Positions 17,902-37,230 of a stretch of DNA of 64,000 bases are shown here, piece after piece. Each line of letters opens with the position of its first letter. The first letter of the stretch is position 1. Origin of the DNA: a phage; sequence record PZ445451.1. The stretch is one strand, 5' to 3'. Both the position numbers and the translations under genes were made by a program. A model generated the notes under the pieces. That model had not been told where the DNA came from. It worked only from the letters and a program-made list of their open reading frames with translations, and did no database searches.

Positions 17902-18367
17902 TTTAACTACAATCAAGGTGTCTGATCTACCTGTAACAACATCTGTTTCAGACACAGATTATTTTGTAACAGATCAATCAGGCATCACTAAGAAAACATC
18001 ATTACGTGTTCTTCTTGCGGGTGCTGGTGTTACACGAAATCGTCTTTCTGCAAGGGGTACTGTCACAAATACCCTAGCTTTAGATATTAGCACGGCAGAG
18101 TATTTCTCTGCCACTTTATCTAGTCCAACTTGCAGTATTTCATTTAGTAATATTCCAGTTACAACTAACATTGTTCAAAACTTTACTCTATCCCTACGTC
18201 AAGGCAGTGGAGCAAATAAAGTAACGTGGCCTCAATCTGTTAAATGGAGTTTTGGTCGCGCTCCTATTTTGAGTTATAAGCAGGGAGCTACAGATATTTT
18301 TGAATTTGTTAGTTATGATAATGGAGCTACCTGGATAGGTAGTTTAGTGATGGCAGGAGTGATTTAA
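17894..18367 (+). CDS. Hypothetical baseplate/tail protein
   Basis: 157 aa ORF overlapping its neighbours by a few nt (translational coupling). Confidence 0.4.
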   Translation: MADLTTIKVSDLPVTTSVSDTDYFVTDQSGITKKTSLRVLLAGAGVTRNRLSARGTVTNTLALDISTAEYFSATLSSPTCSISFSNIPVTTNIVQNFTLSLRQGSGANKVTWPQSVKWSFGRAPILSYKQGATDIFEFVSYDNGATWIGSLVMAGVI

Positions 18368-23419: not shown

Positions 23420-25294
23420 ATGTCAACTACAATTACTAATTTACCCGAAACATCAAAAGTTAATGGTTCTGATTACCTGGTTTTAGACCAATCTGATAAG
23501 ACTGTTAAAAGCACAGTTTCCAAATTTCTTACTGACACTGGGGTGGTTTTAGCCACCCAGTTGAAAGATACAGATGGAGCAGATTTAATACAATCCTCAA
23601 ATGGTAATACTGTTCAGGAAGAGTTGAATAACAATCTTCTTAATGATCGTGAACAGTGGCGTCGTAGTCTTGCTGAGGCAGGGTTAACACTTGTTGATGG
23701 TAGCTTTGAGGAGGGTGCTACATTAAATAATAATACTGATGCTGTTTGGTATATTGCAGCGGGCCAGTGTTATTCCTGGGATGGTGCATTCCCTAAAACT
23801 GTAGCTGCTGGCTCAACACCTACATCATCTGGTGGAGTTGGATTGGGTGCGTGGGTTAGTGTTGGTGATGCTTCATTGAGAAAAGAACTATCATCTAACT
23901 ATGGTGCTGGTCTTATTAAAACAACAAATGGCGACAGTGTTCAGTCAGAACTTGATACTTTGCGGTTATCTGATAGTGCTGAGAAAATTGCAGCCAACCT
24001 GTTATTAGGCTCCGCAAAAGTTATTGACTCCGTATCCAGTGCCGATTCTTTTATCCTCCCATCCTTCGCTACGTTAGAAGGGGGAGATAATTTCTTAACC
24101 GGCTTCATAGGAACAACCTACCAGAAAAACAAAACTATTCGTAAATCAAGTAATACAACTGTTACGTTAACAAACCAAGACCCAACCGCCAGTAGTCAAA
24201 CCGTCGACGCTGTAGTATACCAGGATCCGTCCTGGCCTGGCGGCAGAGTATTCCCCCAAAAATCGGCATTAAAGCATATTACTGTTGAGGGTAACTCTGC
24301 TGCCAACCCCAGTCAGGCCGGATTTTTCGTATTACAAGCTGGAGTAGTTGACATTGAGAATGTAGATTTCATCAACTGCACCTATGCAATATGGGCTAAA
24401 GATATCTGGCAAAGCCGTATCTCCAGGGTATTCTCCAACAACGGAAAGATTCGTCTGGATAATGGTACGTCTGTGGTACTTACCGGGTGTGGACTTGCGT
24501 CAGCAGACACAGGGAGAACGGGCGCATTCGACCTTACGGGCATGAAGTATTCTACGCTTATTGGTTGTACATCAGACCATACTACCAATACTGCATATTC
24601 ATTCGACGCTTGCGAAGGGATTGTGCTTGACGCTTGCGGATGTGAGGGCGCCAACACCACCACGGCTAATGCCGGAACAGCTCTGGCTTTTAAAGATAAC
24701 AATCATAATATAGTGGTCAATGCTTTCACATGTTTTCCGGTAGCCGATCAGGGGCCAGCGCTAATATCGTTTGGCAGTAATAATCAGGTAACTCTAAACT
24801 CGTTCGAGGTTATACCAGGAATTACATATAACGGGGACATATACCTTTATGGAGCTAATTCCCATATCACTATAAATGGTGGGCGTTTCGGTTCATCCGG
24901 TAATGCTATGCCTATTGTTATTGCTTCAGCAGCCGCCGTTGGTTCTACGGTGACATACCATCATCGGCGCGGTATCACGTACACCTACAGAGTAACAGAG
25001 GCTGGGGTTGTATCTCCGGTACAACATTTCAGGCCTATTGTGTCTGCTATTATTGCTGCCTCTGGGGATGTTGTTTCAGGGTTTGGCGTTAACAGTGTAA
25101 CTAAAAATAGTACTGGCTCTTACACTATTAACTTCACCAGTGAAGTAGCCACCGGATATCATATACAGCAGCTTTCGAGCTTCGGATTTCAGCAGGTAAG
25201 CACATTTGATAATACATCATTAACGGTTACACTCATAAGCCCAGATAAGATACCAACTGATTCTGCATTCTCAATAAATATAAATGGATGGTAA
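23420..25294 (+). CDS. Tailspike protein (beta-helix type, putative depolymerase)
   Basis: N-terminal anchor-like sequence (MSTTITNLPETSKVNGSDYLVLDQSDKTVK); Gly/Thr/Asn/Cys-rich repetitive region typical of right-handed beta-helices; terminator downstream. Confidence 0.55.
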   Translation: MSTTITNLPETSKVNGSDYLVLDQSDKTVKSTVSKFLTDTGVVLATQLKDTDGADLIQSSNGNTVQEELNNNLLNDREQWRRSLAEAGLTLVDGSFEEGATLNNNTDAVWYIAAGQCYSWDGAFPKTVAAGSTPTSSGGVGLGAWVSVGDASLRKELSSNYGAGLIKTTNGDSVQSELDTLRLSDSAEKIAANLLLGSAKVIDSVSSADSFILPSFATLEGGDNFLTGFIGTTYQKNKTIRKSSNTTVTLTNQDPTASSQTVDAVVYQDPSWPGGRVFPQKSALKHITVEGNSAANPSQAGFFVLQAGVVDIENVDFINCTYAIWAKDIWQSRISRVFSNNGKIRLDNGTSVVLTGCGLASADTGRTGAFDLTGMKYSTLIGCTSDHTTNTAYSFDACEGIVLDACGCEGANTTTANAGTALAFKDNNHNIVVNAFTCFPVADQGPALISFGSNNQVTLNSFEVIPGITYNGDIYLYGANSHITINGGRFGSSGNAMPIVIASAAAVGSTVTYHHRRGITYTYRVTEAGVVSPVQHFRPIVSAIIAASGDVVSGFGVNSVTKNSTGSYTINFTSEVATGYHIQQLSSFGFQQVSTFDNTSLTVTLISPDKIPTDSAFSININGW

Positions 25295-25298
25295 CAAC

Positions 25299-25325
25299 AA
25301 CCCCGCTTCGGCGGGGTGTTTTAAA
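25299..25325 (+). terminator. Rho-independent terminator (UUCG loop)
   Basis: ccccgc-ttcg-gcgggg followed by tgttttaaaa. Confidence 0.6.
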
Positions 25326-25347
25326 ACTACAACATGAGGACTAACCC

Positions 25348-25653
25348 ATGAATAAGATGTTCACACAGCCCACTGGCCCAGTGGCTAAACAGGTTAATAA
25401 ACAAGCCATTGCCCGTAAGTTTGGTGTTAAGCAGAATGAAGTAGTTTACTTCGCTGTAGGTGCTGTACTAAGTGGATATAAGATTATCTATGATAAGGAG
25501 ACGCAAAGGGCGTATTCCCTACCTACTGATATTGCCCCAGGTATTACTGCCATTAGTCTTAGTGCTGCTGTACTTGTGCATTCAGCGGGTTCTGTAGACC
25601 TTGGGGAATTAGCTGTATATCGTGATTTAAAAAGTAATGAGAACGCACCATGA
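25348..25653 (+). CDS. Hypothetical protein
   Basis: 101 aa ORF with GAGGA RBS. Confidence 0.4.
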   Translation: MNKMFTQPTGPVAKQVNKQAIARKFGVKQNEVVYFAVGAVLSGYKIIYDKETQRAYSLPTDIAPGITAISLSAAVLVHSAGSVDLGELAVYRDLKSNENAP

Positions 25654-25895
25654 GAAAATTTTTAATAGGTATGTTTTGTACATATCCTGATAATAAAGTC
25701 AGTTCTACTAAAGTTTGGAATGCTATTGGTATGATTGTTATGTCCAGTATGTTTATTTATTTGGGAATTGATAAAGAAATTCCTGAGTGGATGGGCTGGG
25801 CTTTTGTTTTTATGATCACACCCTCCAGACTAATGAAGAGTTTAATAGATTTACGTTGGGGCAGATCACCTGCCCCTGATAAGGAGGATAACTAA
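25650..25895 (+). CDS. Small membrane protein (two predicted TM helices)
   Basis: 81 aa; hydrophobic stretches IGMIVMSSMFIYLGI and WMGWAFVFMI; ATGA start/stop overlap. Confidence 0.4.
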   Translation: MRKFLIGMFCTYPDNKVSSTKVWNAIGMIVMSSMFIYLGIDKEIPEWMGWAFVFMITPSRLMKSLIDLRWGRSPAPDKEDN

Positions 25896-27382
25896 TGGCA
25901 GATTATGGTTTAACAGATGCTGGTTTTGTCATTCCAACGTTTGATGATATTCTAAATAATTATATGACAGCATTGAAAAACACTTTCGGTGCAGATACAG
26001 CTACATCTGAAGATACTGTCTTTGGTCAACTGTTTCGTATTATTGCATATACAGATTACACTCTTTGGGAAGGTATGCAAGGTGTTTACAATACCCAAAC
26101 CTTAGATGGTGCAGAAGGTATTTACCTTGATGAAATTTTCTCTAAAAGGGGTTTTTATCGTAAAGCTGCTTCTGCTGGTAGTGGTTATGCTTATGTTAAA
26201 TCTAACAATAAGGCAGCTTGGACTTATGAGCTAAGCACAGATGTTTATTTTAATGCCGATAACGATTTGACATATTATGTCAGTGCACCAACAATGTTGA
26301 ATGCTAAGATTGGAGCGTATACCATTTCTAAAGCAAACGCAACAGCTTCTGGTGAAACTTCTATTACTTTCTACATTCAAAGTGCTATTGATGGTGGTCT
26401 TAACAGTAAAACACTAAGTCCTAGCAATACAAACTTTATTTTAGATCTCACGAATTTCATTAAAGCTAACGTATCAACAACAGATCGTGCTTTAGTATGG
26501 AATGATGCTAGTAATGTTTACATGGGTTATAATCCAGAAGATAATGTTAACCCAATAGGTCTAGTAACACCAGTGAAATTTTACGCATCTATTGCAATAG
26601 GTACAAAATGGAGTGAAATTCCAGTTACGTGTTCAGACGTTGGTTATAATCCAGTAGGCACAGAAAGTATCACAGGTATTTCTTCAACGTTTACAGGCTT
26701 TTTAGATACAGGTAACTTCTATCAATTCTCTCCAGGTACAGATGTTGAAACAGATGCAGAATTCCGTTCTCGTTTCAATGATAATATGGATGAAGCTAAT
26801 GCTGCTACTCGTGCTGCTATTGTTAAAGCCCTGTTACTGACAGATGGTGTGACAAAGGTTAAGATTTATGATAACCCTACACTACACGATCAGGAACATG
26901 CTCCAGCTATGACATTCCAGACTATTGTGTATGGTGGTACAGCAGAAGAAGTTGCACAGGTTATTTATAATACTAAACCTATTAACACCTTAACTTATGG
27001 TACGACAGCAATTACTATCGTAACAGAAGATGGCGGTCAAGAAGTAATTCGTTTTTCTCCTGGTGACAATGCTGAATATTCACTTAAACTAGTATATCAA
27101 ACTGGCAATGGTAGTGTGTTAAGTACAACAGAAAGAGAAAACATTGTTTCTGCTCTTTCAAATCTACAGGCTTATTTTGAGCTAGGGTCAACAGTAACTA
27201 ACGATCAGATAAAAGGTGTAATTTATTCTGCACTTGCGTTCGGACGCTTGACTTCTCTCCGTGTTTATGTTAAACTTAATACTGAGGATGACAGTAAATA
27301 TAATGAGGGAGATATCACTCCAGCGTACAATGTTGTACCATCCTTTGACCTTGATAATATTTCCTACGAGTACGGAGTCTAA
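25895..27382 (+). CDS. Baseplate wedge protein (Baseplate_J / gp6-like)
   Basis: 495 aa; region GIYLDEIFSKRGFYRKAASAGSGYAYV resembles the Baseplate_J conserved block (LD..g...G..R..A..A.G). Confidence 0.5.
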   Translation: MADYGLTDAGFVIPTFDDILNNYMTALKNTFGADTATSEDTVFGQLFRIIAYTDYTLWEGMQGVYNTQTLDGAEGIYLDEIFSKRGFYRKAASAGSGYAYVKSNNKAAWTYELSTDVYFNADNDLTYYVSAPTMLNAKIGAYTISKANATASGETSITFYIQSAIDGGLNSKTLSPSNTNFILDLTNFIKANVSTTDRALVWNDASNVYMGYNPEDNVNPIGLVTPVKFYASIAIGTKWSEIPVTCSDVGYNPVGTESITGISSTFTGFLDTGNFYQFSPGTDVETDAEFRSRFNDNMDEANAATRAAIVKALLLTDGVTKVKIYDNPTLHDQEHAPAMTFQTIVYGGTAEEVAQVIYNTKPINTLTYGTTAITIVTEDGGQEVIRFSPGDNAEYSLKLVYQTGNGSVLSTTERENIVSALSNLQAYFELGSTVTNDQIKGVIYSALAFGRLTSLRVYVKLNTEDDSKYNEGDITPAYNVVPSFDLDNISYEYGV

Positions 27383-27384
27383 AA

Positions 27385-28014
27385 ATGGCAGTGAGTGTTG
27401 ACCATGTGACAACGTGGGATAGTATCAATGAAGATGTTAAAGACCTACTGATTGAAGATTTTAAATCTTCTCCGAACATTGTCAAACTACTCTATATCAT
27501 TTCTAGCGAAAAACAAAAGATAGATCAGGCAATGATCTATCTTGCCAAACACCGCTTAATCTCTACTGCAACTGGTAAGTATTTAGATCTTATTGGTGAA
27601 GAGATGGGGATGGAAAGAAATGGTGCTACAGATGAAGAGTATCGTACAATATTAAAAATCAGGGCTTATCGTGTTGCGTCTTCTGGTACGCGAGATGATA
27701 TCATTGATATGTTCGCTCGTTTTACAGGAACAGAAAAAGAAACGATCAATACATACGTTGGATTAAATAAAACATTCGACGTATTCTTTTATAATTTGTG
27801 TCTACAATCCGATCAGGCAGTAGCACAGTTACTTAACGTTTTCCCGATCCTAAGTAGTTATCGCTTAGGTGCGAAAGCGGGTGCAGCCTTTGGTTTCACT
27901 TCCTATTATGCCACAACTCCACCTCATGGTATAGGTGGTTTAGGTTCTCTTTACACAGAGGCTGAAGGAGATGATACAGGGCGAATGACTATGCTGATAG
28001 CTCAAATAGAATAA
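27385..28014 (+). CDS. Baseplate protein (gpI-like, putative)
   Basis: 209 aa ORF immediately after the J-like gene; positional inference only. Confidence 0.35.
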   Translation: MAVSVDHVTTWDSINEDVKDLLIEDFKSSPNIVKLLYIISSEKQKIDQAMIYLAKHRLISTATGKYLDLIGEEMGMERNGATDEEYRTILKIRAYRVASSGTRDDIIDMFARFTGTEKETINTYVGLNKTFDVFFYNLCLQSDQAVAQLLNVFPILSSYRLGAKAGAAFGFTSYYATTPPHGIGGLGSLYTEAEGDDTGRMTMLIAQIE

Positions 28015-28027
28015 GGAGTTACTCTTA

Positions 28028-29011
28028 ATGGCAAAGCCACAATACTACCCTGACTGGGCGACACAAACAGTAACCCTCCCAGGAACGGGAAACACAAACA
28101 AAATTAGACCAAAAGAAACCATCCGTAATGTTGGTATGGACTTTGGTCAGATTATGACTTGTGAAGAAATGAACTGGATCTTAAACAATATTGGGTCTTG
28201 GATTCGCTATATGCAAGATGAATTCTTCCCAACATTGCCTACTACATATCTTCCTATAGTCGGTACTAAAATTACAATGGCAGGTGATGCTGCAGGTGAA
28301 GTTACATGGAATGGTAATGCTGCTGTAACATTATCTATTCAAGTAGTAGATAACAGCCATAATCACTTATCAGCTAACATTACAGACGCAACATCAAACC
28401 AAGTTGTAGGGAATGTCCTTGTTAAGCGTGATAATGGTGGTGCTATCTATGCAGGTGATATTTACACTTGTGGTACAGGTGCTACAGATCCTGCAACATT
28501 ATTTTTTAGAAACTACAACGGACAAACAGTAGGTAATATGTCCTCTGAACCAGGTGCAGGTGGTCAACTCTATATTTATAGAATAAACCCATCAACTGGA
28601 GGAACATCTTGTGGAGTCCGTTTGTACGATGCAGGTTATGTTTTAATAGACAATCCTCGTTCTAATTCTGGTCAAGATACTGGCAATGGTAATGCTCTTG
28701 TAAGATTAGATTATCTTAACTCAAGACTAAACTCATTGCAAAGTACACTGCAAAATAATATTAACAACGTTAATAGCAACTTGCAAGGCCAAATTAATAG
28801 CATTAACAATAGAGTTTCTTCTGTTGTGTCTGCTATCCGTCTTGGAACACGTATCCAAGCTGGTGTGTCTGAGTCTCGTTTCTATGCTGGTCACGTGATC
28901 ACAGGTTGGGGTTTTGGTGACAAGAAAGAACTTCGTGGTGCTTGGTATTGGTCAGCCCCGCTACAATATTATATTAACGGTAGCTGGATAACAGTAACCA
29001 ACGTTTCGTAA
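28028..29011 (+). CDS. Tail fibre protein
   Basis: 327 aa, Gly/Asn/Thr-rich; immediately followed by a tail fibre assembly chaperone gene. Confidence 0.5.
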   Translation: MAKPQYYPDWATQTVTLPGTGNTNKIRPKETIRNVGMDFGQIMTCEEMNWILNNIGSWIRYMQDEFFPTLPTTYLPIVGTKITMAGDAAGEVTWNGNAAVTLSIQVVDNSHNHLSANITDATSNQVVGNVLVKRDNGGAIYAGDIYTCGTGATDPATLFFRNYNGQTVGNMSSEPGAGGQLYIYRINPSTGGTSCGVRLYDAGYVLIDNPRSNSGQDTGNGNALVRLDYLNSRLNSLQSTLQNNINNVNSNLQGQINSINNRVSSVVSAIRLGTRIQAGVSESRFYAGHVITGWGFGDKKELRGAWYWSAPLQYYINGSWITVTNVS

Positions 29012-29020
29012 GGAGAGTCT

Positions 29021-29572
29021 ATGAAAAAAGACGTTATTTTTACAGGTTTTGAATTGTATGAACCAGAATTAACAGAAGAAAATATTCTTTATCTTTCTGT
29101 TGGTGGTGGTTTTTTGCAAGACAAAGATGGTAACGACTGGTATCAGCTTCAAAAAACTTTGATGGTAGAATATCCCGACGCTTATTTTATTACCTTAGAT
29201 GATAATAATATTGTACGTGGTGCTACTAAAGATGTTACTACCTATTTCCCTGCCGGACAATCTATTTTAGTTACATATAATGTACCAGATAAAATAGAAG
29301 ATGAAAGTAATATTGGCTCTTGGCAATATGTTGAAGGTAAGTTTGTTCCTCACAATAATCTTGCTATTGAAGATGCTACTCTTAAGTTAGAAAAGGAGCT
29401 AACTTGGGCTACGAATCAAGTGTCTGCGATTCAAGATTTAGAGGAATTACAAGGTTTATCTGAAGAACAAAAAGATTGGTTAGGAAAAGTTAAACTCTAT
29501 CGTGCAACATTAATTCAAATTAACGTTGAAGATGCACCTAATATAACTTGGCCTACAAAACCTAAGAAATAG
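29021..29572 (+). CDS. Tail fibre assembly chaperone (Tfa-like)
   Basis: 183 aa; C-terminal KLYRATLIQINVEDAPNITWPTKP matches the Tfa C-terminal signature (W..yR..L..vd....p.i.WP..P). Confidence 0.7.
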   Translation: MKKDVIFTGFELYEPELTEENILYLSVGGGFLQDKDGNDWYQLQKTLMVEYPDAYFITLDDNNIVRGATKDVTTYFPAGQSILVTYNVPDKIEDESNIGSWQYVEGKFVPHNNLAIEDATLKLEKELTWATNQVSAIQDLEELQGLSEEQKDWLGKVKLYRATLIQINVEDAPNITWPTKPKK

Positions 29573-29581
29573 GGGCAATGT

Positions 29582-29923
29582 ATGGAGCTAACAGAAGTAT
29601 GGGATATCGCTAAAGAGGCGATTATCCCTCTTATTGGCGTAATCTGGGTGGTCTTCAAACAGAAGATAGATGATATGGCAAGTGATTTGGATAAAATGGA
29701 AGACAAATACCGCGAACTAGAAAAGAAGTTGGTGTTTGTTGAATCCACTTATGCTACCAAAGCAGAACTTGCTCAAATGCTTAACCAGATCAACTCTACA
29801 TTAATGGCAAATAATACTGCCTTAGAACAGAAGATTGAAAAAATAATGGATTTAAAAAATGCTCCTGTTCAATTAATGTTAGAGGAGATTACGAAGCGCA
29901 CACAAAGTAAGGACAAAAATTAA
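29582..29923 (+). CDS. Membrane-anchored coiled-coil protein (unknown function)
   Basis: 113 aa; N-terminal TM segment IIPLIGVIWVVF followed by a heptad-like charged region. Confidence 0.35.
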   Translation: MELTEVWDIAKEAIIPLIGVIWVVFKQKIDDMASDLDKMEDKYRELEKKLVFVESTYATKAELAQMLNQINSTLMANNTALEQKIEKIMDLKNAPVQLMLEEITKRTQSKDKN

Positions 29924-32337
29924 TGGCGAATTTTCCAACATATCCTGCTACGACACTAGAACAAGGTGTTGATCTGGTTATATTCTCGTCTAACCAGATG
30001 CATGATGTTATTAATGGGGATGCTACAGCAACTGTAGAAACCGAAACAGGTTTAATACCTACACTGCGTAAAGCACTTGTTGATAACTTCTTCTTTAAGA
30101 GTCCTGTTGCTTGGTCAGCAGGATCAACTGAAACTGTATTTAACCAGTTACGTTATTTTGAAAACGGTATCTTGAGTGGATACTATTATGCCCCATCTGC
30201 CACTACTGCTAACCCTGTACCTATGCAGGGTACACCTGTAGGAGATAGTAACTGGACTCTGTACGCTCTTAAAACTGAACAGTTAGCTTCAGATGTGTAT
30301 CCTTGGTATTTTAAAGGTGCTACAGGATATGAAACAGAAATCAGTCCTCCTTATATCTTTGATAATGCTATTGTCACCATTAATGGTGTAATTCAGATTC
30401 AAGGTGAAGCATTTACTATCAAAGATAGTAAAATTATTCTGGCAGAACCATTAGGTTTAGATCCGTCTACTGGTCTACCTAACAAATTGTTTGCTTTTAT
30501 TGGTAAAACAACAGCCTCTACTTCTTACGTAGAGAAAAACCTTTTGTCATCTACTACTGGTGCAGCAATGGTTGGTCTTCCATCTGGAGGCAACCTGTTA
30601 CAAGCTCAATACTTTGTAACGCCTGAGCAGTTTGGTGCAATTGGGGATGGAGTTACCGATGATACTCAAGCAATTTTAAAAACCATTACTTTCGCTAACA
30701 CGAATAACATTCAAGTACGTGCAGATAAGAATTATAGATTCACAAGCTCAATTGCTATGTCTGGTATTCGTTGGTATGGTGGTACATTCACTGGTAACGG
30801 TGGAACAATGATTTCTACTGTGTCCTGTTGGATTGAAAACGTTCGCTTTGAAAAATGTTATGTTAAGATGTTAGGTGGGGATTGCCGATTCTATCGTAAT
30901 ATCTTCTCCAACGCAACATCTACAGCAGCATTCTTAATGCAAGCAATGACAAGTGAAGGTACGTTGGACTTCAGTTACAACGAAATGTATGGTTGTAAAT
31001 ATGCGATCCTGCAACAAGGTACTGGAGAAGTAATGACCTACGGGCGTTACTCTAACAACTATATTCACGATATTAAAGGTGATGCTATTGAACTTAACGT
31101 AGTTCAAAAACACTACACTGAAGGTTTGATTATCGAGAATAACCACATTGCTAACGTAGATGCTTCTGGACAAGGGGCAAACTGGGGTATTGGTATTGGT
31201 GTAGCAGGTAGTGGCCCATATGGTGTTGATGTTCCTGATTCACAATATGTACGTAATTTCAGTATCGTTGGGAATAGGGTTTACAATTGCCGTCAATGTT
31301 TACACGTTGAAATGGGTAAAAACTTCACAATACGTGATAATGAAGTTTATCCTAACACAGCAGTTTCAACAGGTACAGGTTTAACTACTTGTGGTGTTGC
31401 ATTATACGGATGCCAAGATTTTGAAGTTGATGGTTTAACTGGTTATCTGCTTAATGACCCATCTGTTTCAACACGCATGGTCTTTATTGACTGGGGTGTT
31501 AACAGTGGAAGATATGCGGGGCCACCAATTAACTTTACAATTAAGAATTTGGATATTCCAGAATCTTCAATTGAGATTGCAACATCTGGATCAGATGACT
31601 GGGAAAACTCTACAATTGTTAGTAATATCAATTGTAATGTTTTTAAATGGCGTGGGCTACCATCTAGCTCTACCTTTAATAATATTCGTTGCCGTAGTAT
31701 TGACTTTATTGGTCAACACGGAAGCGGAGAAGGAAGTGGTGGCGGTTTCTATACTCGCAGTCAATTCACGTATATGAAGTGGGTAGGATGCACAGCACTT
31801 AGCGGAGATGAAACAACAGTTTCTTTTGCTAAAATCTACACTGATCGTTGCGATCAGGTTGGAAATAATTTTGGTGTTCCAACTGCTGTTGATGGTACAG
31901 GTCATCGTGGGCCAGTTTTAACTACTATTTCTGAACAATATTTTACAGCTTATGATGAATTCCCAGGTGGGCGTGAATTCCCTACTGGAACAGTTATTCA
32001 TTGTGCAAGCGGTAAAAAACATGTTGTTACAGTAGGTGGTGCTTTCTTTAGTGACAACGAGAAAATAAAAGCAACTGTTACAGGTCAAACCTATCTACAG
32101 TCTAATGCTTTAAACTGGGCTAGTAATGGCTACGCTAAAGCAGCAGGTACTAAGATTGTTATTCCAGGTGCAGGTGCAAATGGCGGCGATCTTGTGACAA
32201 CTATAGCACGTGCTACATACGTGACAAATAGTTTGTACACAATAGATATTGCAGATCCAATTGTAACACCTACAGCAGAGAATACACAAATTAAAGCTCT
32301 GAATCCTGTTACTTTTGTTACTGTCAACAATGCTTAA
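29923..32337 (+). CDS. Tailspike protein with pectate-lyase-type beta-helix (putative depolymerase)
   Basis: 804 aa; motif PEQFGAIGDGVTDDTQAI is the classic N-terminal signature of pectate-lyase-3 / GH28-like beta-helix tailspikes; N-terminal anchor domain. Confidence 0.65.
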   Translation: MANFPTYPATTLEQGVDLVIFSSNQMHDVINGDATATVETETGLIPTLRKALVDNFFFKSPVAWSAGSTETVFNQLRYFENGILSGYYYAPSATTANPVPMQGTPVGDSNWTLYALKTEQLASDVYPWYFKGATGYETEISPPYIFDNAIVTINGVIQIQGEAFTIKDSKIILAEPLGLDPSTGLPNKLFAFIGKTTASTSYVEKNLLSSTTGAAMVGLPSGGNLLQAQYFVTPEQFGAIGDGVTDDTQAILKTITFANTNNIQVRADKNYRFTSSIAMSGIRWYGGTFTGNGGTMISTVSCWIENVRFEKCYVKMLGGDCRFYRNIFSNATSTAAFLMQAMTSEGTLDFSYNEMYGCKYAILQQGTGEVMTYGRYSNNYIHDIKGDAIELNVVQKHYTEGLIIENNHIANVDASGQGANWGIGIGVAGSGPYGVDVPDSQYVRNFSIVGNRVYNCRQCLHVEMGKNFTIRDNEVYPNTAVSTGTGLTTCGVALYGCQDFEVDGLTGYLLNDPSVSTRMVFIDWGVNSGRYAGPPINFTIKNLDIPESSIEIATSGSDDWENSTIVSNINCNVFKWRGLPSSSTFNNIRCRSIDFIGQHGSGEGSGGGFYTRSQFTYMKWVGCTALSGDETTVSFAKIYTDRCDQVGNNFGVPTAVDGTGHRGPVLTTISEQYFTAYDEFPGGREFPTGTVIHCASGKKHVVTVGGAFFSDNEKIKATVTGQTYLQSNALNWASNGYAKAAGTKIVIPGAGANGGDLVTTIARATYVTNSLYTIDIADPIVTPTAENTQIKALNPVTFVTVNNA

Positions 32338-32340
32338 TTA

Positions 32341-32363
32341 AAAAGGGGCGAAAGCCCCTTTAT
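32341..32363 (+). terminator. Rho-independent terminator (GAAA loop)
   Basis: aaggggc-gaaa-gcccctt followed by tataaaa. Confidence 0.55.
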
Positions 32364-32378
32364 AAAAGGAGTAGTAAA

Positions 32379-34340
32379 GTGATTTTAACACGTCCAAATA
32401 GTGCCATTGCAGACATGGTAGAGTCTCGCTATAGAAAGCGTAGAAGTTTTGCAAGTGGTTTTACCTTAAGAGATGCTCGTGAAGCATTGCTCTTTGAAGC
32501 TGACGGTAACTACTATCAGTGGAAAGGTTCTCTACCTAAAGTTGTACCTGCTAACTCTACTCCTACATCTACTGGAGGGATTTCAGATACAGCTTGGAAA
32601 AATGTGGGTAATGCAGATGACATTGCTCAAATAGAATCAGAATTAGATGCTATTGAAGCTGAAATTGAAGATCTTAGAGAATCCATTCCAGAAGCTGGTA
32701 AATCAGCTTACCAGATTGCCGTAGACAATGGTTTCCAAGGTACTGAGACAGACTGGTTGGCTTCTTTAAAAGGTGATCCAGGTGCTCCATTAAAGCTGCT
32801 AGGGACGCTATCTAATACCAACCAATTACCTGCAACTGGAAACAATGCAGGAGATGCATGGATTGTAGGCGAGAATATGTATGCTTGGGATGGTACTGCT
32901 TGGAGAAAAGTAAACTCACAGGGGCCAGAAGGTAAATCTGCTTATGAAGTATGGCTTGCAGCAGGAAATGAAGGTACAGAACTAGATTATCTTGCTTCAA
33001 TTAAAGGTGATAAAGGGGAGCCTGGCCCAGAGGGGCCACAAGGTGTGCCAGGTAATAATGCTAATGGTTTTGATTACCAAGGCGCAGCTAATTCCGTTTC
33101 AGATCTTCCTTCTGCATCTCATGGAAACACATCTCAAGCATGGAGTGTTGGTACATATCTATACGTGTCAAACGGTGTAGAATGGATCAATATGGGCGCT
33201 ATAGTGGGGCCAAAAGGAGATAAAGGCGACAAAGGAGATAAGGGTAATACTGGTGATTCAGCTTATCAAGTCTGGTTAAATGCTGGTAACGTTGGTACTA
33301 TTGACGAATATATTGCCTCTCTGAAAGGAGAAAAAGGTGATAAGGGAGACAAGGGTGATCAAGGTGTACAGGGTATACAAGGCTTGACGGGGCCAACTGG
33401 CGCAGGGTTGACCATTATTGATATTCTGACTAACACTTCTGAACTACCACAAACTGGAGAAGATGGTGATGGTTATCTAATCAATAATGAACTTTGGGTC
33501 TGGTTGCAAGGAGCCACAGAGTGGACAAATGTTGGTCGTTTAGCTGGTACTCCAATCACTGCAAAAGGACACGTTGCGTCTGCAAGTGCGCTTCCTCCTA
33601 CAGCCAATTACGGTGATGCTTATCTGACGGAAGATACAGGTCATCTTTACATTTACACCTATAATGAACAAACTCAAACTGCTGAATATGTAGATATGGG
33701 TAGTTTGAAAGGTGATAAGGGTGAAAAAGGTGACGCTGGTACTAACGGTACAGACGGTGCAACTTGGATTGTTAAAACAACAGATCCAATCTCTAGTGAT
33801 GGTAAACAAGGTGATTATGCCTTTAATATCTCCACTGGTGAGGTGTTCTTAAAAACATCTGCAACTGTCTGGTCTTCTCAAGGTACACTACCTAGTATCA
33901 CAGATGCACCTAGTGATGGTAAGACTTATGCTCGTAAAGATGGGGCATGGGAAGAACTCACTAATTCTGTAGATGGTCAAGATATAGTTCCAACAAAAGT
34001 AACAACTAATTTTATAGAGGTTACAGCATATACCAACAATTCTGTTACAGGGGACTGGACACCTCCAGGAACACATAACATGAATGTGTTGAATCTTACT
34101 GGTAACGCTACTATAAAAGCATGGCCTGGTGTCGAAGATAGTACAAAACCTAAACCATTCTCTGCAATAGTTTATCTTATCCAAGATGCCACTGGAGGTC
34201 GTACTGTTACTTTAGATCCATCTTACAAAGTAATTGGTTCCAGTGATATTAATACAGATCCTAACGGAGTAACAATACTACAACTAACATATTGTGGTGT
34301 TGGTGATTACGTGGATGCTATTGTTGCTAAACGCACATAA
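32379..34340 (+). CDS. Collagen-like repeat tail fibre protein
   Basis: 653 aa; several Gly-X-Y tracts (GDKGDKGDKGNTG, GEKGDKGDKGDQGVQGIQGLTGPTG) interleaved with a repeated module SAYQ.W..AGN.GT..DYLAS.KG; GTG start with AAAGGAG RBS. Confidence 0.65.
   Translation: MILTRPNSAIADMVESRYRKRRSFASGFTLRDAREALLFEADGNYYQWKGSLPKVVPANSTPTSTGGISDTAWKNVGNADDIAQIESELDAIEAEIEDLRESIPEAGKSAYQIAVDNGFQGTETDWLASLKGDPGAPLKLLGTLSNTNQLPATGNNAGDAWIVGENMYAWDGTAWRKVNSQGPEGKSAYEVWLAAGNEGTELDYLASIKGDKGEPGPEGPQGVPGNNANGFDYQGAANSVSDLPSASHGNTSQAWSVGTYLYVSNGVEWINMGAIVGPKGDKGDKGDKGNTGDSAYQVWLNAGNVGTIDEYIASLKGEKGDKGDKGDQGVQGIQGLTGPTGAGLTIIDILTNTSELPQTGEDGDGYLINNELWVWLQGATEWTNVGRLAGTPITAKGHVASASALPPTANYGDAYLTEDTGHLYIYTYNEQTQTAEYVDMGSLKGDKGEKGDAGTNGTDGATWIVKTTDPISSDGKQGDYAFNISTGEVFLKTSATVWSSQGTLPSITDAPSDGKTYARKDGAWEELTNSVDGQDIVPTKVTTNFIEVTAYTNNSVTGDWTPPGTHNMNVLNLTGNATIKAWPGVEDSTKPKPFSAIVYLIQDATGGRTVTLDPSYKVIGSSDINTDPNGVTILQLTYCGVGDYVDAIVAKRT
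33220..33365 (+). repeat. In-frame tandem 9 bp repeats (GAT AAR GGN) encoding collagen-like Gly-X-Y tracts
   Basis: Repeated gataaaggcgacaaaggagataagggt-type units inside the fibre gene. Confidence 0.6.
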
Positions 34341-34343
34341 TCA

Positions 34344-34368
34344 AAGCCCCTTCGGGGGCTTATTGTTT
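34344..34368 (+). terminator. Rho-independent terminator (UUCG loop)
   Basis: agcccc-ttcg-ggggct followed by tattgttt. Confidence 0.55.
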
Positions 34369-34379
34369 AAGGAGATTAA

Positions 34380-37199
34380 ATGTATCCTATTCCTCTATTT
34401 ATGTCAACAACACCAGCTTCAGTAGTAACAGCTACATCTATAACTACTTCCTCTATTGGTATTGCAATAGTTGGTGGTAAAAAACAACTGACATACACAG
34501 TTACACCGGAAGATGGTGCATTATTTGATATAGCTTTTTCATCTTCAGATAATACCAAAATGGTTATAGATAATAGTGGTATGATGGAGTTTGTTGCCGA
34601 AGGTGGTTTTGATGCAATAATGACAGCTAAAAATAATTTAGGTGCTGTCTTAACTGATCAATCTGGTGGTTATGCTTCAGAATTAAGTGTGTACACTGAA
34701 AGTCTATCGGCTATGGATGTAGGCACTACTCAACAGTTAGTTGCTACAATCAGTCCAGAAGGTGCTAAAGACCTTCCAGATATGGTAATTACATACACCA
34801 CAACAGATCCAGAAGTAGCTACTGTAAGCCCTACAGGGTTAATAACTGCTCTTAAAGATGGCGGTTGCCGTATAGGTTGTACTGCAACGTATCAAGGAAC
34901 AGTTGTGGCCTCTGATAGGTCTTATTTAGGTGTTAATGCTATTCCTGTTATTTCTAATGTAACAGCCGTGGCAAACAGTTATGGAGACGTTCGTGTTGCT
35001 TGGGATGTAACTGATCCACTAGACGGTGATACTTATACTGTAGAAGTATTAGATTTAAGTGATAATAGTGTTCAGTGGACTACAACAACCACGAATACTC
35101 ATGCTTACTTTGATATCTCTGACTCTATTCCTCTTTATGGGTTTGCTCCAACATACCTTAAAATTAGCGTTAAGAGCACCAAAGCAGCAGCCGTTATCTT
35201 TAATAACTCAATAGCTACAGATGATTCATTCATTAAAGAAGTTATTGTCTTTGCTGGACAAGATAACGTAAATGCACACTTTACAGAACTATCTGGTGCA
35301 AATAAAGCAGCAATGAGTAGCACAACAGCCCGTAATGCATATGCTGCGCAACGTGGTTTAGCAAATGCTGAAGTTCTTCCGTTAAATACAGCTTCTGGAT
35401 CATCAGCAGCAGATAAATATGCTGACGATAAAGCTGGAACAGGTACACCAGACAATTACTGGTATGATCTGGATAACACAGCAGATGGGCCATGCTTAAC
35501 TAACTTTATCACTAAAGTCACACCTTATGCAAGTAAGGTTAAAGCAATTATTTGGGGACAAGGTGAAAATGATGCTGTATCAGCATCTTCGACTGTTGCA
35601 GGTAGGTACAGTAACACTACACGTTACCATGATGCTACGATAGCTATCTTTGATAAGATGCGTACAATAGTTCCTGCTTCTCAAGCAAAAATTGTTTGGC
35701 AGATCCTAGGACGTTCTTATTTATATGGTGTAGAAGTTAATGGTGTGGATTGGCAGAAGTACAGAAATGTACAAAGAACCATCTCTACAGCACGTGATGA
35801 TGTTATCATTGGTTCTTGGGTAGATGGTGCTGAACGTTACAGTGGCTATGTTTATGAAGAAGGTATTGATGGTCGTATCCATTATGTTTCTTCTGTATAC
35901 CAAACAGCAGCTACAAAACTTGCTAAATCGGCAGCAGACGGTACAGACTTAACATCAACGTCACCTGTTTGGGTTGATATGGCTGTTCCAACTGGAGCAA
36001 CAGCCACTTCCCAATCTAATCAAGATACAATTTTAGCATGGGATGCTCAAGGCTATAGTAAACACTACTTCCGTAATATTAACGTCTTAACCGCATCTGT
36101 ATTAACTGAACAAACGCTTAATACGAACAGTTATACGTTTACCTATGCAGATCAAGTAGAACAATATGGTTTTGCAGCAGGAACTGCTATATTTGATGTT
36201 GCATATTATGACGAAGCAAATGATGTGTTATCTCCTTTAGTACGTTTTAATGTTAATATTACAGCAGGAACCGAAGAAGATAAACCTGTCGTGATGGACT
36301 ATGATTTGACGCAAGAAACTCTCCCATCAGATGTTAAGGTTAATGGTGGGAACTCTTTTGCTCGTGCCTCTGGAGATAAACTTGTAGCCACTAACACCTT
36401 GGTTGCCCCGTTGGAGTATGTTGGTACTACCCCTGTAGGTAGACGTGTAACAGCTAACACAGCTACACAAATTTTTGTCAACAACGCCTTAACAAGTGCA
36501 AGCCCGTGGGTAAAGACCAACTTAACTGTTGCAGCTTCATCTGATAACTCTCCGGCTGGAACTACTGCTAATGTATTCAAATTAACTCCGACTACAACCT
36601 CTGGTAGTCATATCTTAACTGCAACATATACTAACGCGTACAACATATCTGCCGGACGTAACTGGTCTGCCTCTGTTTTCTTGAAAGCGAACGGGATTAC
36701 TAAGGCCAAACTAAGATTAAAAGCAGGAACTGAAGTTAATGAGGGTACTTTTGATTTAGCAGCAGGTACATTCACAGGAAGTGAAGCTAATATTATATCT
36801 ATGGGCAACGGTTGGTATCGTGCTATTCTGCATAAAACAGGGATAGCCAAACAGTCCTCCATAAGTTTTGAAATAATTGCCTTGGATGCAACTGGTGCGG
36901 AGATTTTCGCTGGAAATGGTACTAGTAACCTTGCAGTTTGGTTGCCACAGCTTGAAGGTGCTTCTACAGGAGAAACATCAAAAGCTGGATCGCCTTATGT
37001 CTGCACATATCCTGGAAATTTAGGAGGAGTATCCTTCACTATACCAAGGAACGGACATACTGGTGTGGATGTTTACTATTCCAACGGAGACGTTGTTCGT
37101 GACGTATTCTCTGGTACGGCATCTACTTGGACAATAAACTACTCCAGCTTGTACGATTGGGGATCAGTCTTTATTACAGGTTTGAAATATTACGACTAA
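34380..37199 (+). CDS. Tailspike/tail fibre with two Big_2 Ig-like domains and a SASA-type carbohydrate esterase domain
   Basis: 939 aa; N-terminal Big_2-like repeats (TQQLVATISPEGAKD...ATVSPTGLITALKDG); GQDN(V) and WGQGENDA motifs resemble the GQSN / QGESD motifs of sialate-O-acetylesterase-type domains; C-terminal beta-rich region. Confidence 0.55.
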   Translation: MYPIPLFMSTTPASVVTATSITTSSIGIAIVGGKKQLTYTVTPEDGALFDIAFSSSDNTKMVIDNSGMMEFVAEGGFDAIMTAKNNLGAVLTDQSGGYASELSVYTESLSAMDVGTTQQLVATISPEGAKDLPDMVITYTTTDPEVATVSPTGLITALKDGGCRIGCTATYQGTVVASDRSYLGVNAIPVISNVTAVANSYGDVRVAWDVTDPLDGDTYTVEVLDLSDNSVQWTTTTTNTHAYFDISDSIPLYGFAPTYLKISVKSTKAAAVIFNNSIATDDSFIKEVIVFAGQDNVNAHFTELSGANKAAMSSTTARNAYAAQRGLANAEVLPLNTASGSSAADKYADDKAGTGTPDNYWYDLDNTADGPCLTNFITKVTPYASKVKAIIWGQGENDAVSASSTVAGRYSNTTRYHDATIAIFDKMRTIVPASQAKIVWQILGRSYLYGVEVNGVDWQKYRNVQRTISTARDDVIIGSWVDGAERYSGYVYEEGIDGRIHYVSSVYQTAATKLAKSAADGTDLTSTSPVWVDMAVPTGATATSQSNQDTILAWDAQGYSKHYFRNINVLTASVLTEQTLNTNSYTFTYADQVEQYGFAAGTAIFDVAYYDEANDVLSPLVRFNVNITAGTEEDKPVVMDYDLTQETLPSDVKVNGGNSFARASGDKLVATNTLVAPLEYVGTTPVGRRVTANTATQIFVNNALTSASPWVKTNLTVAASSDNSPAGTTANVFKLTPTTTSGSHILTATYTNAYNISAGRNWSASVFLKANGITKAKLRLKAGTEVNEGTFDLAAGTFTGSEANIISMGNGWYRAILHKTGIAKQSSISFEIIALDATGAEIFAGNGTSNLAVWLPQLEGASTGETSKAGSPYVCTYPGNLGGVSFTIPRNGHTGVDVYYSNGDVVRDVFSGTASTWTINYSSLYDWGSVFITGLKYYD

Positions 37200-37200
37200 T

Positions 37201-37230
37201 AAAAAAGGAGCCATTAGGCTCCTTTTCTTT
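37201..37230. terminator. Bidirectional terminator at the convergence of + and - transcription units
   Basis: Stem ggagcc / ggctcc with loop atta, flanked by aaaaaa on one side and ttttctttt on the other. Confidence 0.65.

What the first reader, a model, noticed from the sequence alone, without database searches (positions are those of the whole stretch)
23420..37199. Multivalent adsorption apparatus: at least five distinct receptor-binding proteins
Within 14 kb there are two beta-helix tailspikes (one with the pectate-lyase-type QFGAIGDGVTDDT motif), a fibre with dedicated Tfa chaperone, a collagen-like fibre and an esterase-bearing spike, each with its own terminator. This implies a branched tail tip able to engage several different surface polysaccharides, and is a plausible hotspot for horizontal exchange.
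Basis: partly seen in the sequence, partly recalled or inferred. Interest (0 to 1): 0.5.

Follow-up and report, generated by a model that had tools for sequence, protein, structure and literature searches.

The report
Phi92-type multi-spike phage adsorption locus
This stretch is the tail-fibre and tailspike gene cluster of the already published coliphage PaulScherrer (Bas60), a phi92-like virus whose several host-binding fibres are a well-described 'Swiss army knife', so the finding is real but ordinary.

Summary
Window 23420-37199 is 100% identical to Escherichia phage PaulScherrer (Bas60, MZ501100; Justusliebigvirus). It is gene-for-gene syntenic with phi92 gp143-gp153, the published 'multivalent adsorption apparatus'.

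- a 624-aa beta-helix tailspike;
- a 327-aa Mu-gpS-like short fibre with its Tfa chaperone;
- the 804-aa colanidase, 99.5% identical to phi92 gp150 (PDB 6E0V), carrying QFGAIGDGVTDDT;
- a 653-aa collagen-like fibre;
- a 939-aa Ig plus SGNH/SASA-fold protein.

Corrections:
- Only four hairpin terminators are present; the fibre and Tfa have none of their own.
- The esterase fold has Asp where the nucleophile Ser should be (GQDN against GQSN in relatives), so activity is doubtful.
- The interval also holds two baseplate wedge genes and three small ORFs.
- It omits three upstream fibre genes, including the gp142-like protein that the literature names as the glycan receptor binder on K-12.
- Clear cassette-type exchange is seen at one slot only (about 23909-25294), bounded on the right by a conserved 101-aa orphan 'D1' docking-domain ORF.

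Whether the collagen-like fibre and the 939-aa protein bind receptors is unproven. Verdict: already known, low interest.

The parts
   Evidence: 98.7% identical to phi92 gp140. Annotated 'sialidase domain protein' in MZ501100. No sequence relative in the PDB.
18367..21243 (+). gp141-like 958-aa tail protein (outside the interval)
   Evidence: 99.5% identical to phi92 gp141. PHROG 2871 'tail protein'. No Pfam or PDB sequence hit.
21252..23411 (+). gp142-like 719-aa fibre protein: Calx-beta, NCTSP_N and TIM barrel. Candidate binder of the NGR glycan (outside the interval).
   Evidence: Pfam NCTSP_N 3.8e-21 and TIM-barrel_NCTSP 6.8e-82. Matches N4 gp64 (5e-27) and gp65 (2e-12). The GMSHY motif is at aa 338, nt 22263-22277; this motif and phi92 gp142 are named as NGR-associated in bioRxiv 10.64898/2026.04.02.716166.
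23420..25294 (+). 624-aa right-handed beta-helix tailspike in the phi92 gp143 slot. aa 1-54 (23420-23581) are the conserved anchor, aa 93-150 (23696-23869) the D2/Tail_spike_N domain, and aa ~164-624 (23909-25291) the exchangeable receptor-binding module.
   Evidence: Only aa 1-54 match phi92 gp143, at 91%. DNA homology to relatives ends at 23571 (phi92) or 23871-23908 (KKE7M and three other Stephanstirmvirinae) and resumes at 25298-25396 or 25655. AF2 pLDDT 82.7; Foldseek hits to CBA120 TSPs and Sf6. The module has the highest GC of the locus, 44.4% against 38% for the window.
25300..25317 (+). Hairpin terminator after the tailspike
   Evidence: CCCCGC-TTCG-GCGGGG followed by TGTTTT, -20.3 kcal/mol with its flanks.
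25348..25653 (+). 101-aa orphan 'D1' tailspike head/docking-domain ORF. It forms the right-hand boundary of the spike cassette and its stop overlaps the start of the next gene (ATGA).
   Evidence: Matches aa 1-94 of G7C gp63.1 (5.5e-34), CBA120 TSP1 (2.9e-33) and TSP3 (8e-31). Kept as a stand-alone 101-102-aa ORF in KKE7M, PD06, iGC_PHA_EC001 and anhysbys. Absent from phi92. Its 3' 169 nt are 97.6-98.8% identical between PaulScherrer, KKE7M or PD06 and the Phapecoctavirus iGC_PHA_EC001 (91.7-92.9% to anhysbys), while the adjacent wedge gene is 75%.
25650..25895 (+). gp144-like 81-aa membrane protein (not an RBP)
   Evidence: 95% identical to phi92 gp144. PHROG 1322 'membrane protein'.
25895..27382 (+). 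Baseplate wedge protein (gp145-like, Baseplate_J)
   Evidence: 99.8% identical to phi92 gp145. Pfam Baseplate_J 3.1e-11. In phi92, fibres I and III attach to gp145 (PMC13450770).
27385..28014 (+). Baseplate wedge protein (gp146-like)
   Evidence: 100% identical to phi92 gp146. PHROG 4056 'baseplate protein'.
28028..29011 (+). 327-aa short tail fibre (gp147-like, equivalent to phi92 'fibre III')
   Evidence: 98% identical to phi92 gp147. aa 2-72 match the phiTE short tail fibre N-terminus, which was modelled on the wedge (9CUY_c, 1.9e-11; PMC11972413). phi92 fibre III was assigned to gp147.
29021..29572 (+). Tail fibre assembly chaperone (gp148-like, gpU/gpK family)
   Evidence: Pfam Caudo_TAP 4.8e-10. 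PHROG 136 at 1.5e-39. 81% identical to phi92 gp148, with the differences in aa 7-134.
29582..29923 (+). gp149-like 113-aa ORF (not an RBP)
   Evidence: 99% identical to phi92 gp149. PHROG 15210.
29923..32337 (+). 804-aa colanidase beta-helix tailspike (gp150-like). QFGAIGDGVTDDT is at nt 30628-30666.
   Evidence: 99.5% identical to phi92 gp150. PDB 6E0V covers aa 180-804. aa 12-126 match the phiTE long tail fibre N-terminus (9CUY_g, 9e-18). C-terminal TSP_Ig-like domain 8.9e-15.
32346..32365 (+). Hairpin terminator after the colanidase gene
   Evidence: AAAGGGGC-GAAA-GCCCCTTT, -14.7 kcal/mol. The simple scanner did not call it.
32379..34340 (+). 653-aa collagen-like fibre (gp151-like): D2 domain at aa 11-77, four G-X-Y runs, foldon-like motif at aa 509-527, C-terminal domain. 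GTG start.
   Evidence: 98% identical to phi92 gp151. Pfam Tail_spike_N 3.8e-21, Collagen 9.8e-08 and Fibritin_C 9.6e-4, the last below cut-off. G-X-Y runs and coordinates.
34346..34361 (+). Hairpin terminator after the collagen-like fibre gene
   Evidence: AGCCCC-TTCG-GGGGCT followed by TATTGTTT.
34380..37199 (+). 939-aa protein: Ig-like/Big_2 domains (aa ~20-280), SGNH/SASA-fold domain (aa ~285-525, nt 35232-35954) with GQDN at nt 35256-35267, a beta domain (aa ~540-628), and a C-terminal domain (aa 629-939).
37204..37226 (+). Hairpin terminator at the end of the + strand late block
   Evidence: 10-bp stem followed by a T-rich tail. Genes downstream are on the - strand.

Best explanation
The region is the receptor-recognition part of the baseplate gene block of phage PaulScherrer (Bas60), and it is a phi92-type multivalent adsorption apparatus.

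Proposed parts and roles:
- Six gp145/gp146-like wedges carry several trimeric appendages at once.
- A short Mu-gpS-like fibre, folded with its Tfa chaperone, docks under the wedge. It is the likely binder of the LPS core and the trigger for contraction.
- A beta-helix tailspike is held by a conserved N-terminal anchor. Its receptor-binding body is an exchangeable cassette.
- The colanidase spike cuts colanic acid.
- A collagen-like, foldon-containing fibre and an Ig plus SGNH-fold protein are additional putative glycan-binding appendages.
- Upstream, the gp141- and gp142-like proteins belong to the same apparatus. The gp142-like protein is the probable binder of the NGR glycan on E. coli K-12.

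What is shown here: identity to a published phage, synteny with phi92, domain content and folds, operon layout and recombination boundaries.
What is taken from the literature on relatives: that the fibres sit on the wedge, that gp150 is a colanidase, and that NGR and the LPS core are receptors.
What is only inferred: that the collagen-like fibre and the 939-aa protein are receptor binders.
For: - 100% DNA identity over 13,780 nt to MZ501100, with that record's tail-fibre annotations.
- Protein-by-protein synteny with phi92 gp140-gp153 at 98-100% identity, except the gp143 slot, gp144 (95%), Tfa (81%) and the gp152/153 fragments.
- Wedge, fibre, Tfa, spike and collagen domains by Pfam and PHROG.
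- 6E0V match for the colanidase.
- Beta-helix model and tailspike fold hits for the 624-aa spike.
- The N-termini of the fibre and the colanidase match phiTE fibres that were modelled in situ on the baseplate.
- phi92 cryo-EM shows fibres attached to gp145 and fibre III assigned to gp147.
- phi92-like phages depend on wecB/nfrB, that is on NGR. gp142/GMSHY is proposed as the NGR determinant, and the motif is present here.
- Bas60-62 had the broadest lysis host range in the BASEL set.
Against: - No virion proteome or structure exists for PaulScherrer itself.
- phi92 cryo-EM sees only three fibre types per wedge, and models of gp150 and gp151 did not fit the unassigned fibre II. More candidate genes than visible fibres means some may be subunits of one fibre, sub-stoichiometric, or not receptor binders.
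- The 939-aa gene is broken in phi92, which still has a broad host range, so it is dispensable at least there.
- The SGNH domain lacks its nucleophile.
Confidence: 0.9

Rival explanations
1. Fewer than five of the listed proteins are receptor binders. The collagen-like gp151 homologue and/or the 939-aa Ig/SGNH protein would be accessory or decorative components (a whisker or neck-type fibre, a scaffold arm of another fibre, or a non-specific glycan 'velcro'), so the functional valency is three or four.
Against: gp151-like begins with the same D2 domain used by bona fide tailspikes. It lies inside the fibre block and is 98% conserved. N4 gp65 is itself a receptor-binding protein. The intact 939-aa gene is conserved across Justusliebigvirus, and its C-terminal domain also in Phapecoctavirus.
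Confidence: 0.4
2. The 939-aa protein is an active O-acetyl esterase spike, working like G7C gp63.1 by deacetylating a surface glycan.
Against: Block I is GQDN in the six near-full-length homologues aligned and GGDN in three shorter relatives, whereas the fused gp65-like homologues keep GQSN or GQSH. Two of the three shorter relatives (P0032, P0033) also have Gln in place of the His. The Pfam SASA score is below the cut-off.
Confidence: 0.2
3. The 101-aa D1 ORF is a working virion component, not only a recombination scar. For example it could be a trans-acting docking module that completes the head of D2-only proteins (the gp151-like fibre or the 624-aa spike), or it could cap a docking site.
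For: It is kept intact, with the same end point and overlap with the next gene, in two genera. Pairwise dN/dS is 0.2-0.7, about 0.2-0.4 between divergent alleles. Both the spike and gp151-like have D2 but no D1. In CBA120, D1 is the surface that binds the XD3 adaptor (PMC8825819).
Against: phi92 lacks it altogether. Its near-identity across genera (dS 0.03 against 1.4 in the wedge gene) looks like a recently exchanged homology arm, and the allelic differences may have arisen while D1 was part of full-length spikes elsewhere. No XD3/gp10-like partner was found in the locus. The BME3 authors simply treat it as one of two tailspike CDSs.
Confidence: 0.25

Closest known systems
Phage phi92 multivalent adsorption apparatus (gp140-gp153; Schwarzer et al. 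2012, as cited in PMC8594841 and PMC13450770)
   Same: Same gene order. 98-100% protein identity for the gp140, 141, 142, 145, 146, 147, 149, 150 and 151 homologues (gp144 95%). Same wedge proteins. Same genus.
   Different: The endosialidase body of gp143 is replaced by an unrelated beta-helix module after aa 54. An extra 101-aa D1 ORF follows it. Tfa is 81% identical. The last gene is intact (939 aa) where phi92 has two fragments, gp152 and gp153, and no C-terminal domain.
CBA120/Kuttervirus TSP1-4 branched tailspike complex and G7C gp63.1-gp66
   Same: The D2 (Tail_spike_N) domain plus beta-helix body in the 624-aa spike. D1 sequence in the orphan ORF matches TSP1, TSP3 and gp63.1 at E 1e-31 to 1e-34. 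Both use the idea of several spikes on one adaptor.
   Different: Here D1 and D2 are on separate ORFs. No XD/gp10-like adaptor domains were found. The spikes appear to be anchored through lineage-specific N-termini to a Mu/P2-type wedge.
Phage N4 non-contractile sheath gp64-gp65 (PDB 9LC0, 9YF4/5)
   Same: gp142-like shares NCTSP_N, the GMSHY segment and the TIM barrel. The 939-aa protein shares the following FN3-like, SGNH and beta-domain region. Foldseek E 2e-30 (TMq 0.40); a metagenomic homologue, P0037, carries both halves in one chain.
   Different: The module is split into two genes 11 kb apart on a contractile-tailed phage. The SGNH nucleophile is lost. The protein has its own Ig-like N-terminus and a different C-terminal domain.
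phiTE (Vequintavirinae-related) baseplate fibre network, PDB 9CUY
   Same: The N-termini of the short fibre (aa 2-72) and of the colanidase (aa 12-126) match the phiTE STF and LTF segments that were modelled on the wedge and sheath initiator.
   Different: The distal parts are unrelated, and phiTE is flagellotropic.
Mu gpS/gpU short fibre and chaperone pair
   Same: A fibre gene immediately followed by a Caudo_TAP chaperone. BASEL supplementary figure S5D states this homology for PaulScherrer.
   Different: There is no invertible segment or alternative tip here.

Membership tests
phi92-type (Justusliebigvirus) multivalent adsorption locus | Synteny and high identity with phi92 gp140-gp153 | tested here: met
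   tblastn against NC_023693 gives 98-100% for nine proteins (gp144 95%) in the same order. 100% DNA identity to the Justusliebigvirus phage PaulScherrer.
phi92-type (Justusliebigvirus) multivalent adsorption locus | Several different fibres or spikes physically present on one baseplate | not testable with these tools
   Known only from phi92 cryo-EM, with three fibre types per wedge. There is no structure or proteome for PaulScherrer.
phi92-type (Justusliebigvirus) multivalent adsorption locus | Broad host range across capsulated and non-capsulated enterobacteria | not testable with these tools
   The BASEL paper reports the broadest lysis host range for Bas60-62.
Right-handed beta-helix tailspike (CBA120 TSP type), 624-aa ORF | D2/Tail_spike_N domain followed by a parallel beta-helix body | tested here: met
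   Pfam PF18668 at 2.6e-19. AF2 pLDDT 82.7 with a long run of beta strands. Foldseek hits to 5W6F, 5W6H, 4OJ5 and 2VBK.
Right-handed beta-helix tailspike (CBA120 TSP type), 624-aa ORF | N-terminal D1 head domain in the same chain | tested here: not met
   aa 1-54 are phi92-gp143-like, not D1. D1 is encoded by the separate ORF 25348-25653.
Right-handed beta-helix tailspike (CBA120 TSP type), 624-aa ORF | Trimer with glycan-cleaving or modifying activity | not testable with these tools
   Only a monomer model was made, and no substrate is known.
Colanidase tailspike (phi92 gp150) | Sequence identity to the crystallised and characterised enzyme, including the pectate-lyase-like N-terminal cap motif | tested here: met
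   99.5% identity. 6E0V covers aa 180-804. Motif present at aa 236-248. Enzyme activity comes from the literature cited.
SGNH/SASA carbohydrate esterase, 939-aa ORF | SGNH alpha/beta fold | tested here: met
SGNH/SASA carbohydrate esterase, 939-aa ORF | Nucleophile Ser in block I (GQSN / GDS) | tested here: not met
   GQDN at aa 293-296. Homologues P0036, P0037, P0043 and P0044 have GQSN or GQSH at the same column.
SGNH/SASA carbohydrate esterase, 939-aa ORF | Pfam SASA score above the gathering threshold | tested here: not met
   17.2 bits against a cut-off of 24.8.
Collagen-like phage fibre, 653-aa ORF | Runs of G-X-Y triplets | tested here: met
   Runs of 6, 6, 9 and 6 triplets. Pfam Collagen 32.1 bits against a cut-off of 27.2.
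Tail fibre assembly chaperone (Caudo_TAP; lambda gpK / Mu gpU) | Family domain, with the gene immediately downstream of its fibre | tested here: met
   PF02413 40.1 bits against a cut-off of 22.1. A 9-nt gap follows the fibre gene.
N4 gp65-type non-contractile sheath receptor-binding protein | NCTSP_N, TIM barrel and SGNH-containing C-terminal half in one polypeptide forming a sheath on a non-contractile tail | tested here: not met
   The domains are present but split between ORFs 21252-23411 and 34380-37199, and the phage is a myovirus.
   Present after four genes. Absent after the fibre and Tfa.

The most novel reading that the evidence does not exclude
Three details may not have been described explicitly.
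(1) The N4-gp65-type glycan-recognition module is split in these myoviruses into two genes at opposite ends of the fibre locus (gp142-like and the 939-aa protein). These may still work as one unit, as the fused metagenomic homologue P0037 suggests.
(2) Its SGNH half has become a Ser-to-Asp pseudo-esterase, that is, a glycan binder rather than a deacetylase.
(3) The conserved orphan D1 docking-domain ORF is the right-hand homology arm, or a trans-acting adaptor, that lets Stephanstirmvirinae swap tailspike bodies with Kuttervirus-, G7C-, T7- and P22-like phages.
Probability: 0.3. Interest if true: 0.4.

Novelty: already known. Interest (0 to 1): 0.15.

Why it matters
The locus is a ready-made natural example of modular host-range engineering, but it has already been sequenced, annotated and discussed (BASEL Bas60; the phi92 literature). 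The practical value of this check has three parts.
- It fixes exact module boundaries: anchor aa 1-54, D2 to about aa 163, and the swappable body at nt 23909-25294, flanked by the terminator and the D1 ORF.
- It warns that the 'esterase' is probably inactive.
- It points out that the K-12 glycan binder (the gp142 homologue) lies just outside the flagged interval.

Tried and rejected
- The original phi92 paper (PMC3457257), which holds the virion mass-spectrometry table, is not in the library. Virion presence of gp150, gp151, gp152 and gp153 could therefore not be checked directly.
- The rV5 proteome paper lists detected tail-fibre proteins but gives no one-to-one mapping to these ORFs.
- Default Pfam scans gave nothing for the esterase region or for the C-terminal 311 aa of the 939-aa protein. 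PDB sequence searches found nothing for the gp140- and gp141-like proteins, so no XD/gp10-like partner for the D1 domain was identified.
- The promoter scan showed no enrichment (65 against 62.4 expected) and was not used.
- dN/dS on the D1 ORF (0.2-0.7) cannot separate selection on the orphan ORF from variation imported by recombination.
- The genomic context of the fused homologue P0037 was uninformative.
- A read-through or frameshift fusion of the spike and the D1 ORF was considered and rejected. The two are in different frames and are separated by a terminator hairpin.
- A bacterial or prophage origin was rejected because of the 100% match to a lytic phage genome.
Full report
**Identity.** A megablast of window 23420-37199 returns Escherichia phage PaulScherrer (Bas60, MZ501100.1; Stephanstirmvirinae, Justusliebigvirus) at 100% identity over all 13,780 nt. 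About 30 other phi92-like phages cover at least 80% of the query; the best are 96-99% identical over 82-89% of it. The deposited annotation already calls these genes lateral tail fibres, short tail fibre, tail fibre chaperone and baseplate proteins. A tblastn against phi92 (NC_023693) shows gene-for-gene synteny with gp140-gp153. The finding is therefore a rediscovery of a described system.

**Anatomy inside the interval.** All genes are on the + strand.
1. 23420-25294, 624 aa.
   - aa 1-54 are 91% identical to the N-terminus of the phi92 endosialidase gp143; after that the two proteins are unrelated.
   - aa 93-150 are the Tail_spike_N ('D2') domain.
   - The AF2 model (pLDDT 82.7; aa 1-73 disordered) is a beta-strand-rich body. 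Its best PDB matches are CBA120 TSP3, TSP4 and TSP1, and the Sf6 and Dettilon tailspikes. It is a genuine beta-helix tailspike.
2. 25348-25653, 101 aa. An orphan copy of the 'D1' head domain of G7C gp63.1 and CBA120 TSP1/TSP3 (E 1e-31 to 1e-34).
3. 25650-25895. A gp144-like membrane protein.
4. 25895-27382 and 27385-28014. The two wedge proteins, 99.8% and 100% identical to gp145 and gp146.
5. 28028-29011, 327 aa. The short fibre, 98% identical to gp147. Its first 72 aa match the phiTE short tail fibre segment that was modelled on the wedge (PMC11972413).
6. 29021-29572. The Caudo_TAP chaperone.
7. 29582-29923. A gp149-like ORF.
8. 29923-32337, 804 aa. The colanidase, 99.5% identical to gp150.
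   - PDB 6E0V covers aa 180-804.
   - QFGAIGDGVTDDT is at aa 236-248.
   - aa 12-126 match the phiTE long-fibre N-terminus.
9. 32379-34340, 653 aa, GTG start. The gp151 homologue, with D2 at aa 11-77, four G-X-Y runs of 27 triplets in total, a foldon-like APSDGKTYARKDGAW motif and a C-terminal domain.
10. 34380-37199, 939 aa. [quoted passage not shown]

**Transcription layout.** GC-rich tetraloop hairpins followed by T-rich tracts sit 5-8 nt after the stops at 25294, 32337, 34340 and 37199. The gaps after the fibre, Tfa and gp149-like genes are 9 nt or less and have no hairpin. Those genes therefore share the terminator behind the colanidase gene. Likewise gp141-like, gp142-like and the spike are separated by 8 nt only. 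'Each with its own terminator' is true for four of the five proteins. Terminator-like sites are not enriched in the region as a whole (17 against 11.7 +/- 3.2).

**Where exchange happens.**
- Against phi92, DNA homology stops at 23571 and resumes at 25655. Against KKE7M and three other Stephanstirmvirinae it stops at 23871-23908 and resumes at 25298-25396.
- The exchangeable unit is thus the spike body (about 23909-25294, aa ~164-624). It also has the highest GC in the locus, 44.4% against 38% for the window.
- Among sequenced phages this body is unique to PaulScherrer; the next best match is 55% identical, in 44-kb siphoviruses.
- In metagenomes and prophages, relatives at 75-83% identity sit on 40-72-kb contigs. 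Some carry a T7-fibre N-terminus, and more distant relatives (about 62%) carry a P22-type head-binding N-terminus.
- Other Stephanstirmvirinae (contigs of 140-152 kb) share only the first 25-31% of the protein, at 77-91% identity. They carry pectate-lyase, sialidase, GDPD or other bodies instead.
- The right-hand flank is the terminator plus the D1 ORF. The last 169 nt of that ORF are 97.6-98.8% identical between PaulScherrer, KKE7M or PD06 and the Phapecoctavirus iGC_PHA_EC001 (91.7-92.9% to anhysbys). The adjacent wedge gene is only 75% identical across the genera (dS 0.03 against 1.4).
- This is the signature of a shared homology arm for cassette exchange. The BME3 paper already noted the 102-aa CDS next to its tailspike.
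- The colanidase, collagen-like fibre, short fibre and 939-aa genes are 97-99.5% conserved against phi92 and/or KKE7M. The 'hotspot' claim therefore applies mainly to one slot. The N-terminal Ig module of the 939-aa protein is joined to RCC1-type C-terminal domains in Phapecoctavirus relatives, which shows modularity between genera.

**The 'esterase spike'.**
- Foldseek places the 939-aa model closest to the phage N4 non-contractile sheath protein gp65 (E 2e-30; about 480-495 aligned columns at 4.3-4.6 A rmsd for two of the chains).
- Block I reads GQDN in the six near-full-length homologues aligned. Fused gp65-like homologues keep GQSN or GQSH, and two of three shorter relatives have also lost the His. 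The fold is right, but the canonical nucleophile is missing. I rate an active esterase at about 0.2 and a glycan-binding pseudo-enzyme as more likely.
- phi92 gp152 and gp153 are fragments of this gene (aa 1-198, 273-335 and 335-628) and lack the C-terminal domain. That domain is otherwise conserved in Justusliebigvirus and Phapecoctavirus.

**Link to the upstream gp142-like gene.**
- ORF 21252-23411 has Calx-beta, NCTSP_N and the NCTSP TIM barrel. It matches N4 gp64 and gp65 and carries GMSHY.
- A 2026 preprint reports GMSHY as the conserved motif of NGR-targeting phages and names phi92 gp142 as the example.
- phi92-like phages need wecB and nfrB, that is the NGR glycan, on K-12.
- The metagenomic protein P0037 (1171 aa) aligns to gp142-like over its aa 128-704 (34%, E 2e-104) and to aa 189-621 of the 939-aa protein over its aa 733-1164 (39%, E 7e-80).
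- The two PaulScherrer genes are therefore the two halves of a gp65-type protein, encoded 11 kb apart. That they still act together is an inference.

**Mechanism, with status of each step.**
- Shown here: gene content, folds, boundaries and operon structure.
- From relatives: fibres I and III attach to gp145; fibre III is gp147, and its rearrangement accompanies contraction. gp150 hydrolyses colanic acid. NGR is the primary receptor and the LPS outer-core glucose is the terminal receptor.
- Inferred: the 624-aa spike sits where gp143 sits, at the tip of fibre I, through its shared 54-aa anchor, and it degrades or binds an unknown O-antigen or capsule. The colanidase docks like the phiTE long fibre. 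The collagen-like fibre and the 939-aa protein add further glycan contacts.
- The number of candidate genes (up to eight, counting the gp140-, gp141- and gp142-like genes) exceeds the three fibre types seen per wedge. 'At least five RBPs' is therefore an upper-bound reading, not a demonstrated one.

**Verdict.** The interpretation matches the published view of this phage group but overstates what is proven, and it misses the upstream part of the apparatus. Novelty: already known. Interest: low (0.15). The split gp65-type module, the Ser-to-Asp SGNH domain and the orphan D1 ORF at the cassette border are modest leads worth a note.

Noticed in passing
window 25348-25653: A 101-aa stand-alone ORF that is the D1 head/docking domain of G7C gp63.1 and CBA120 TSP1/3. 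It is kept as a short ORF in two genera and absent from phi92. Its 3' part is about 98% identical between three Justusliebigvirus phages and the Phapecoctavirus iGC_PHA_EC001, next to a wedge gene that is 75% identical.
   Followed up: yes
window 35256-35267 (aa 293-296 of ORF 34380-37199): SGNH/SASA block I reads GQDN instead of GQSN, so the catalytic Ser is replaced by Asp. The same change is seen in the five other near-full-length homologues aligned (P0001, P0016, P0028, P0030, P0031). It is not seen in the fused gp65-like homologues.
   Followed up: yes
window 34380-37199 against L002 21321-22983 (phi92 gp152/gp153): phi92's two small 'tail protein' genes are fragments (a deletion of aa 199-272, a frame change, and loss of aa 629-939) of the intact 939-aa gene found in PaulScherrer and most relatives.
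   Followed up: partly
window 21252-23411 and 34380-37199; protein P0037 (L007 376-3891): A 1171-aa metagenomic protein fuses a gp142-like N-terminal part to the central part of the 939-aa protein. The two window genes therefore look like a split N4-gp65-type protein. P0036 instead starts with a Mu Gp48 baseplate domain, which hints at how such modules are anchored.
   Followed up: partly
window 22263-22277: The GMSHY motif, reported in a 2026 preprint as the signature of NGR-glycan-targeting phages, is present in the gp142-like ORF just upstream of the flagged interval.
   Followed up: partly
window 29021-29572: The Tfa chaperone is only 81% identical to phi92's, with differences confined to aa 7-134. 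The fibre it serves is 98% identical, so this is a small mosaic patch.
   Followed up: no
window 33903-33959: A T4-fibritin foldon-like motif (APSDGKTYARKDGAWEEL) lies in the collagen-like fibre, downstream of the G-X-Y runs.
   Followed up: no
window 41040-44354 (- strand), intein 41889-42623: The GenBank record annotates an intein-containing DNA polymerase here. phi92's polymerase gene is the same length (3315 nt) but is annotated simply as DNA polymerase I.
   Followed up: no
window ~37200: GC skew changes sign where gene orientation switches from the + strand late/structural block to - strand genes. A strong hairpin at 37204-37226 lies between the convergent genes.
   Followed up: no
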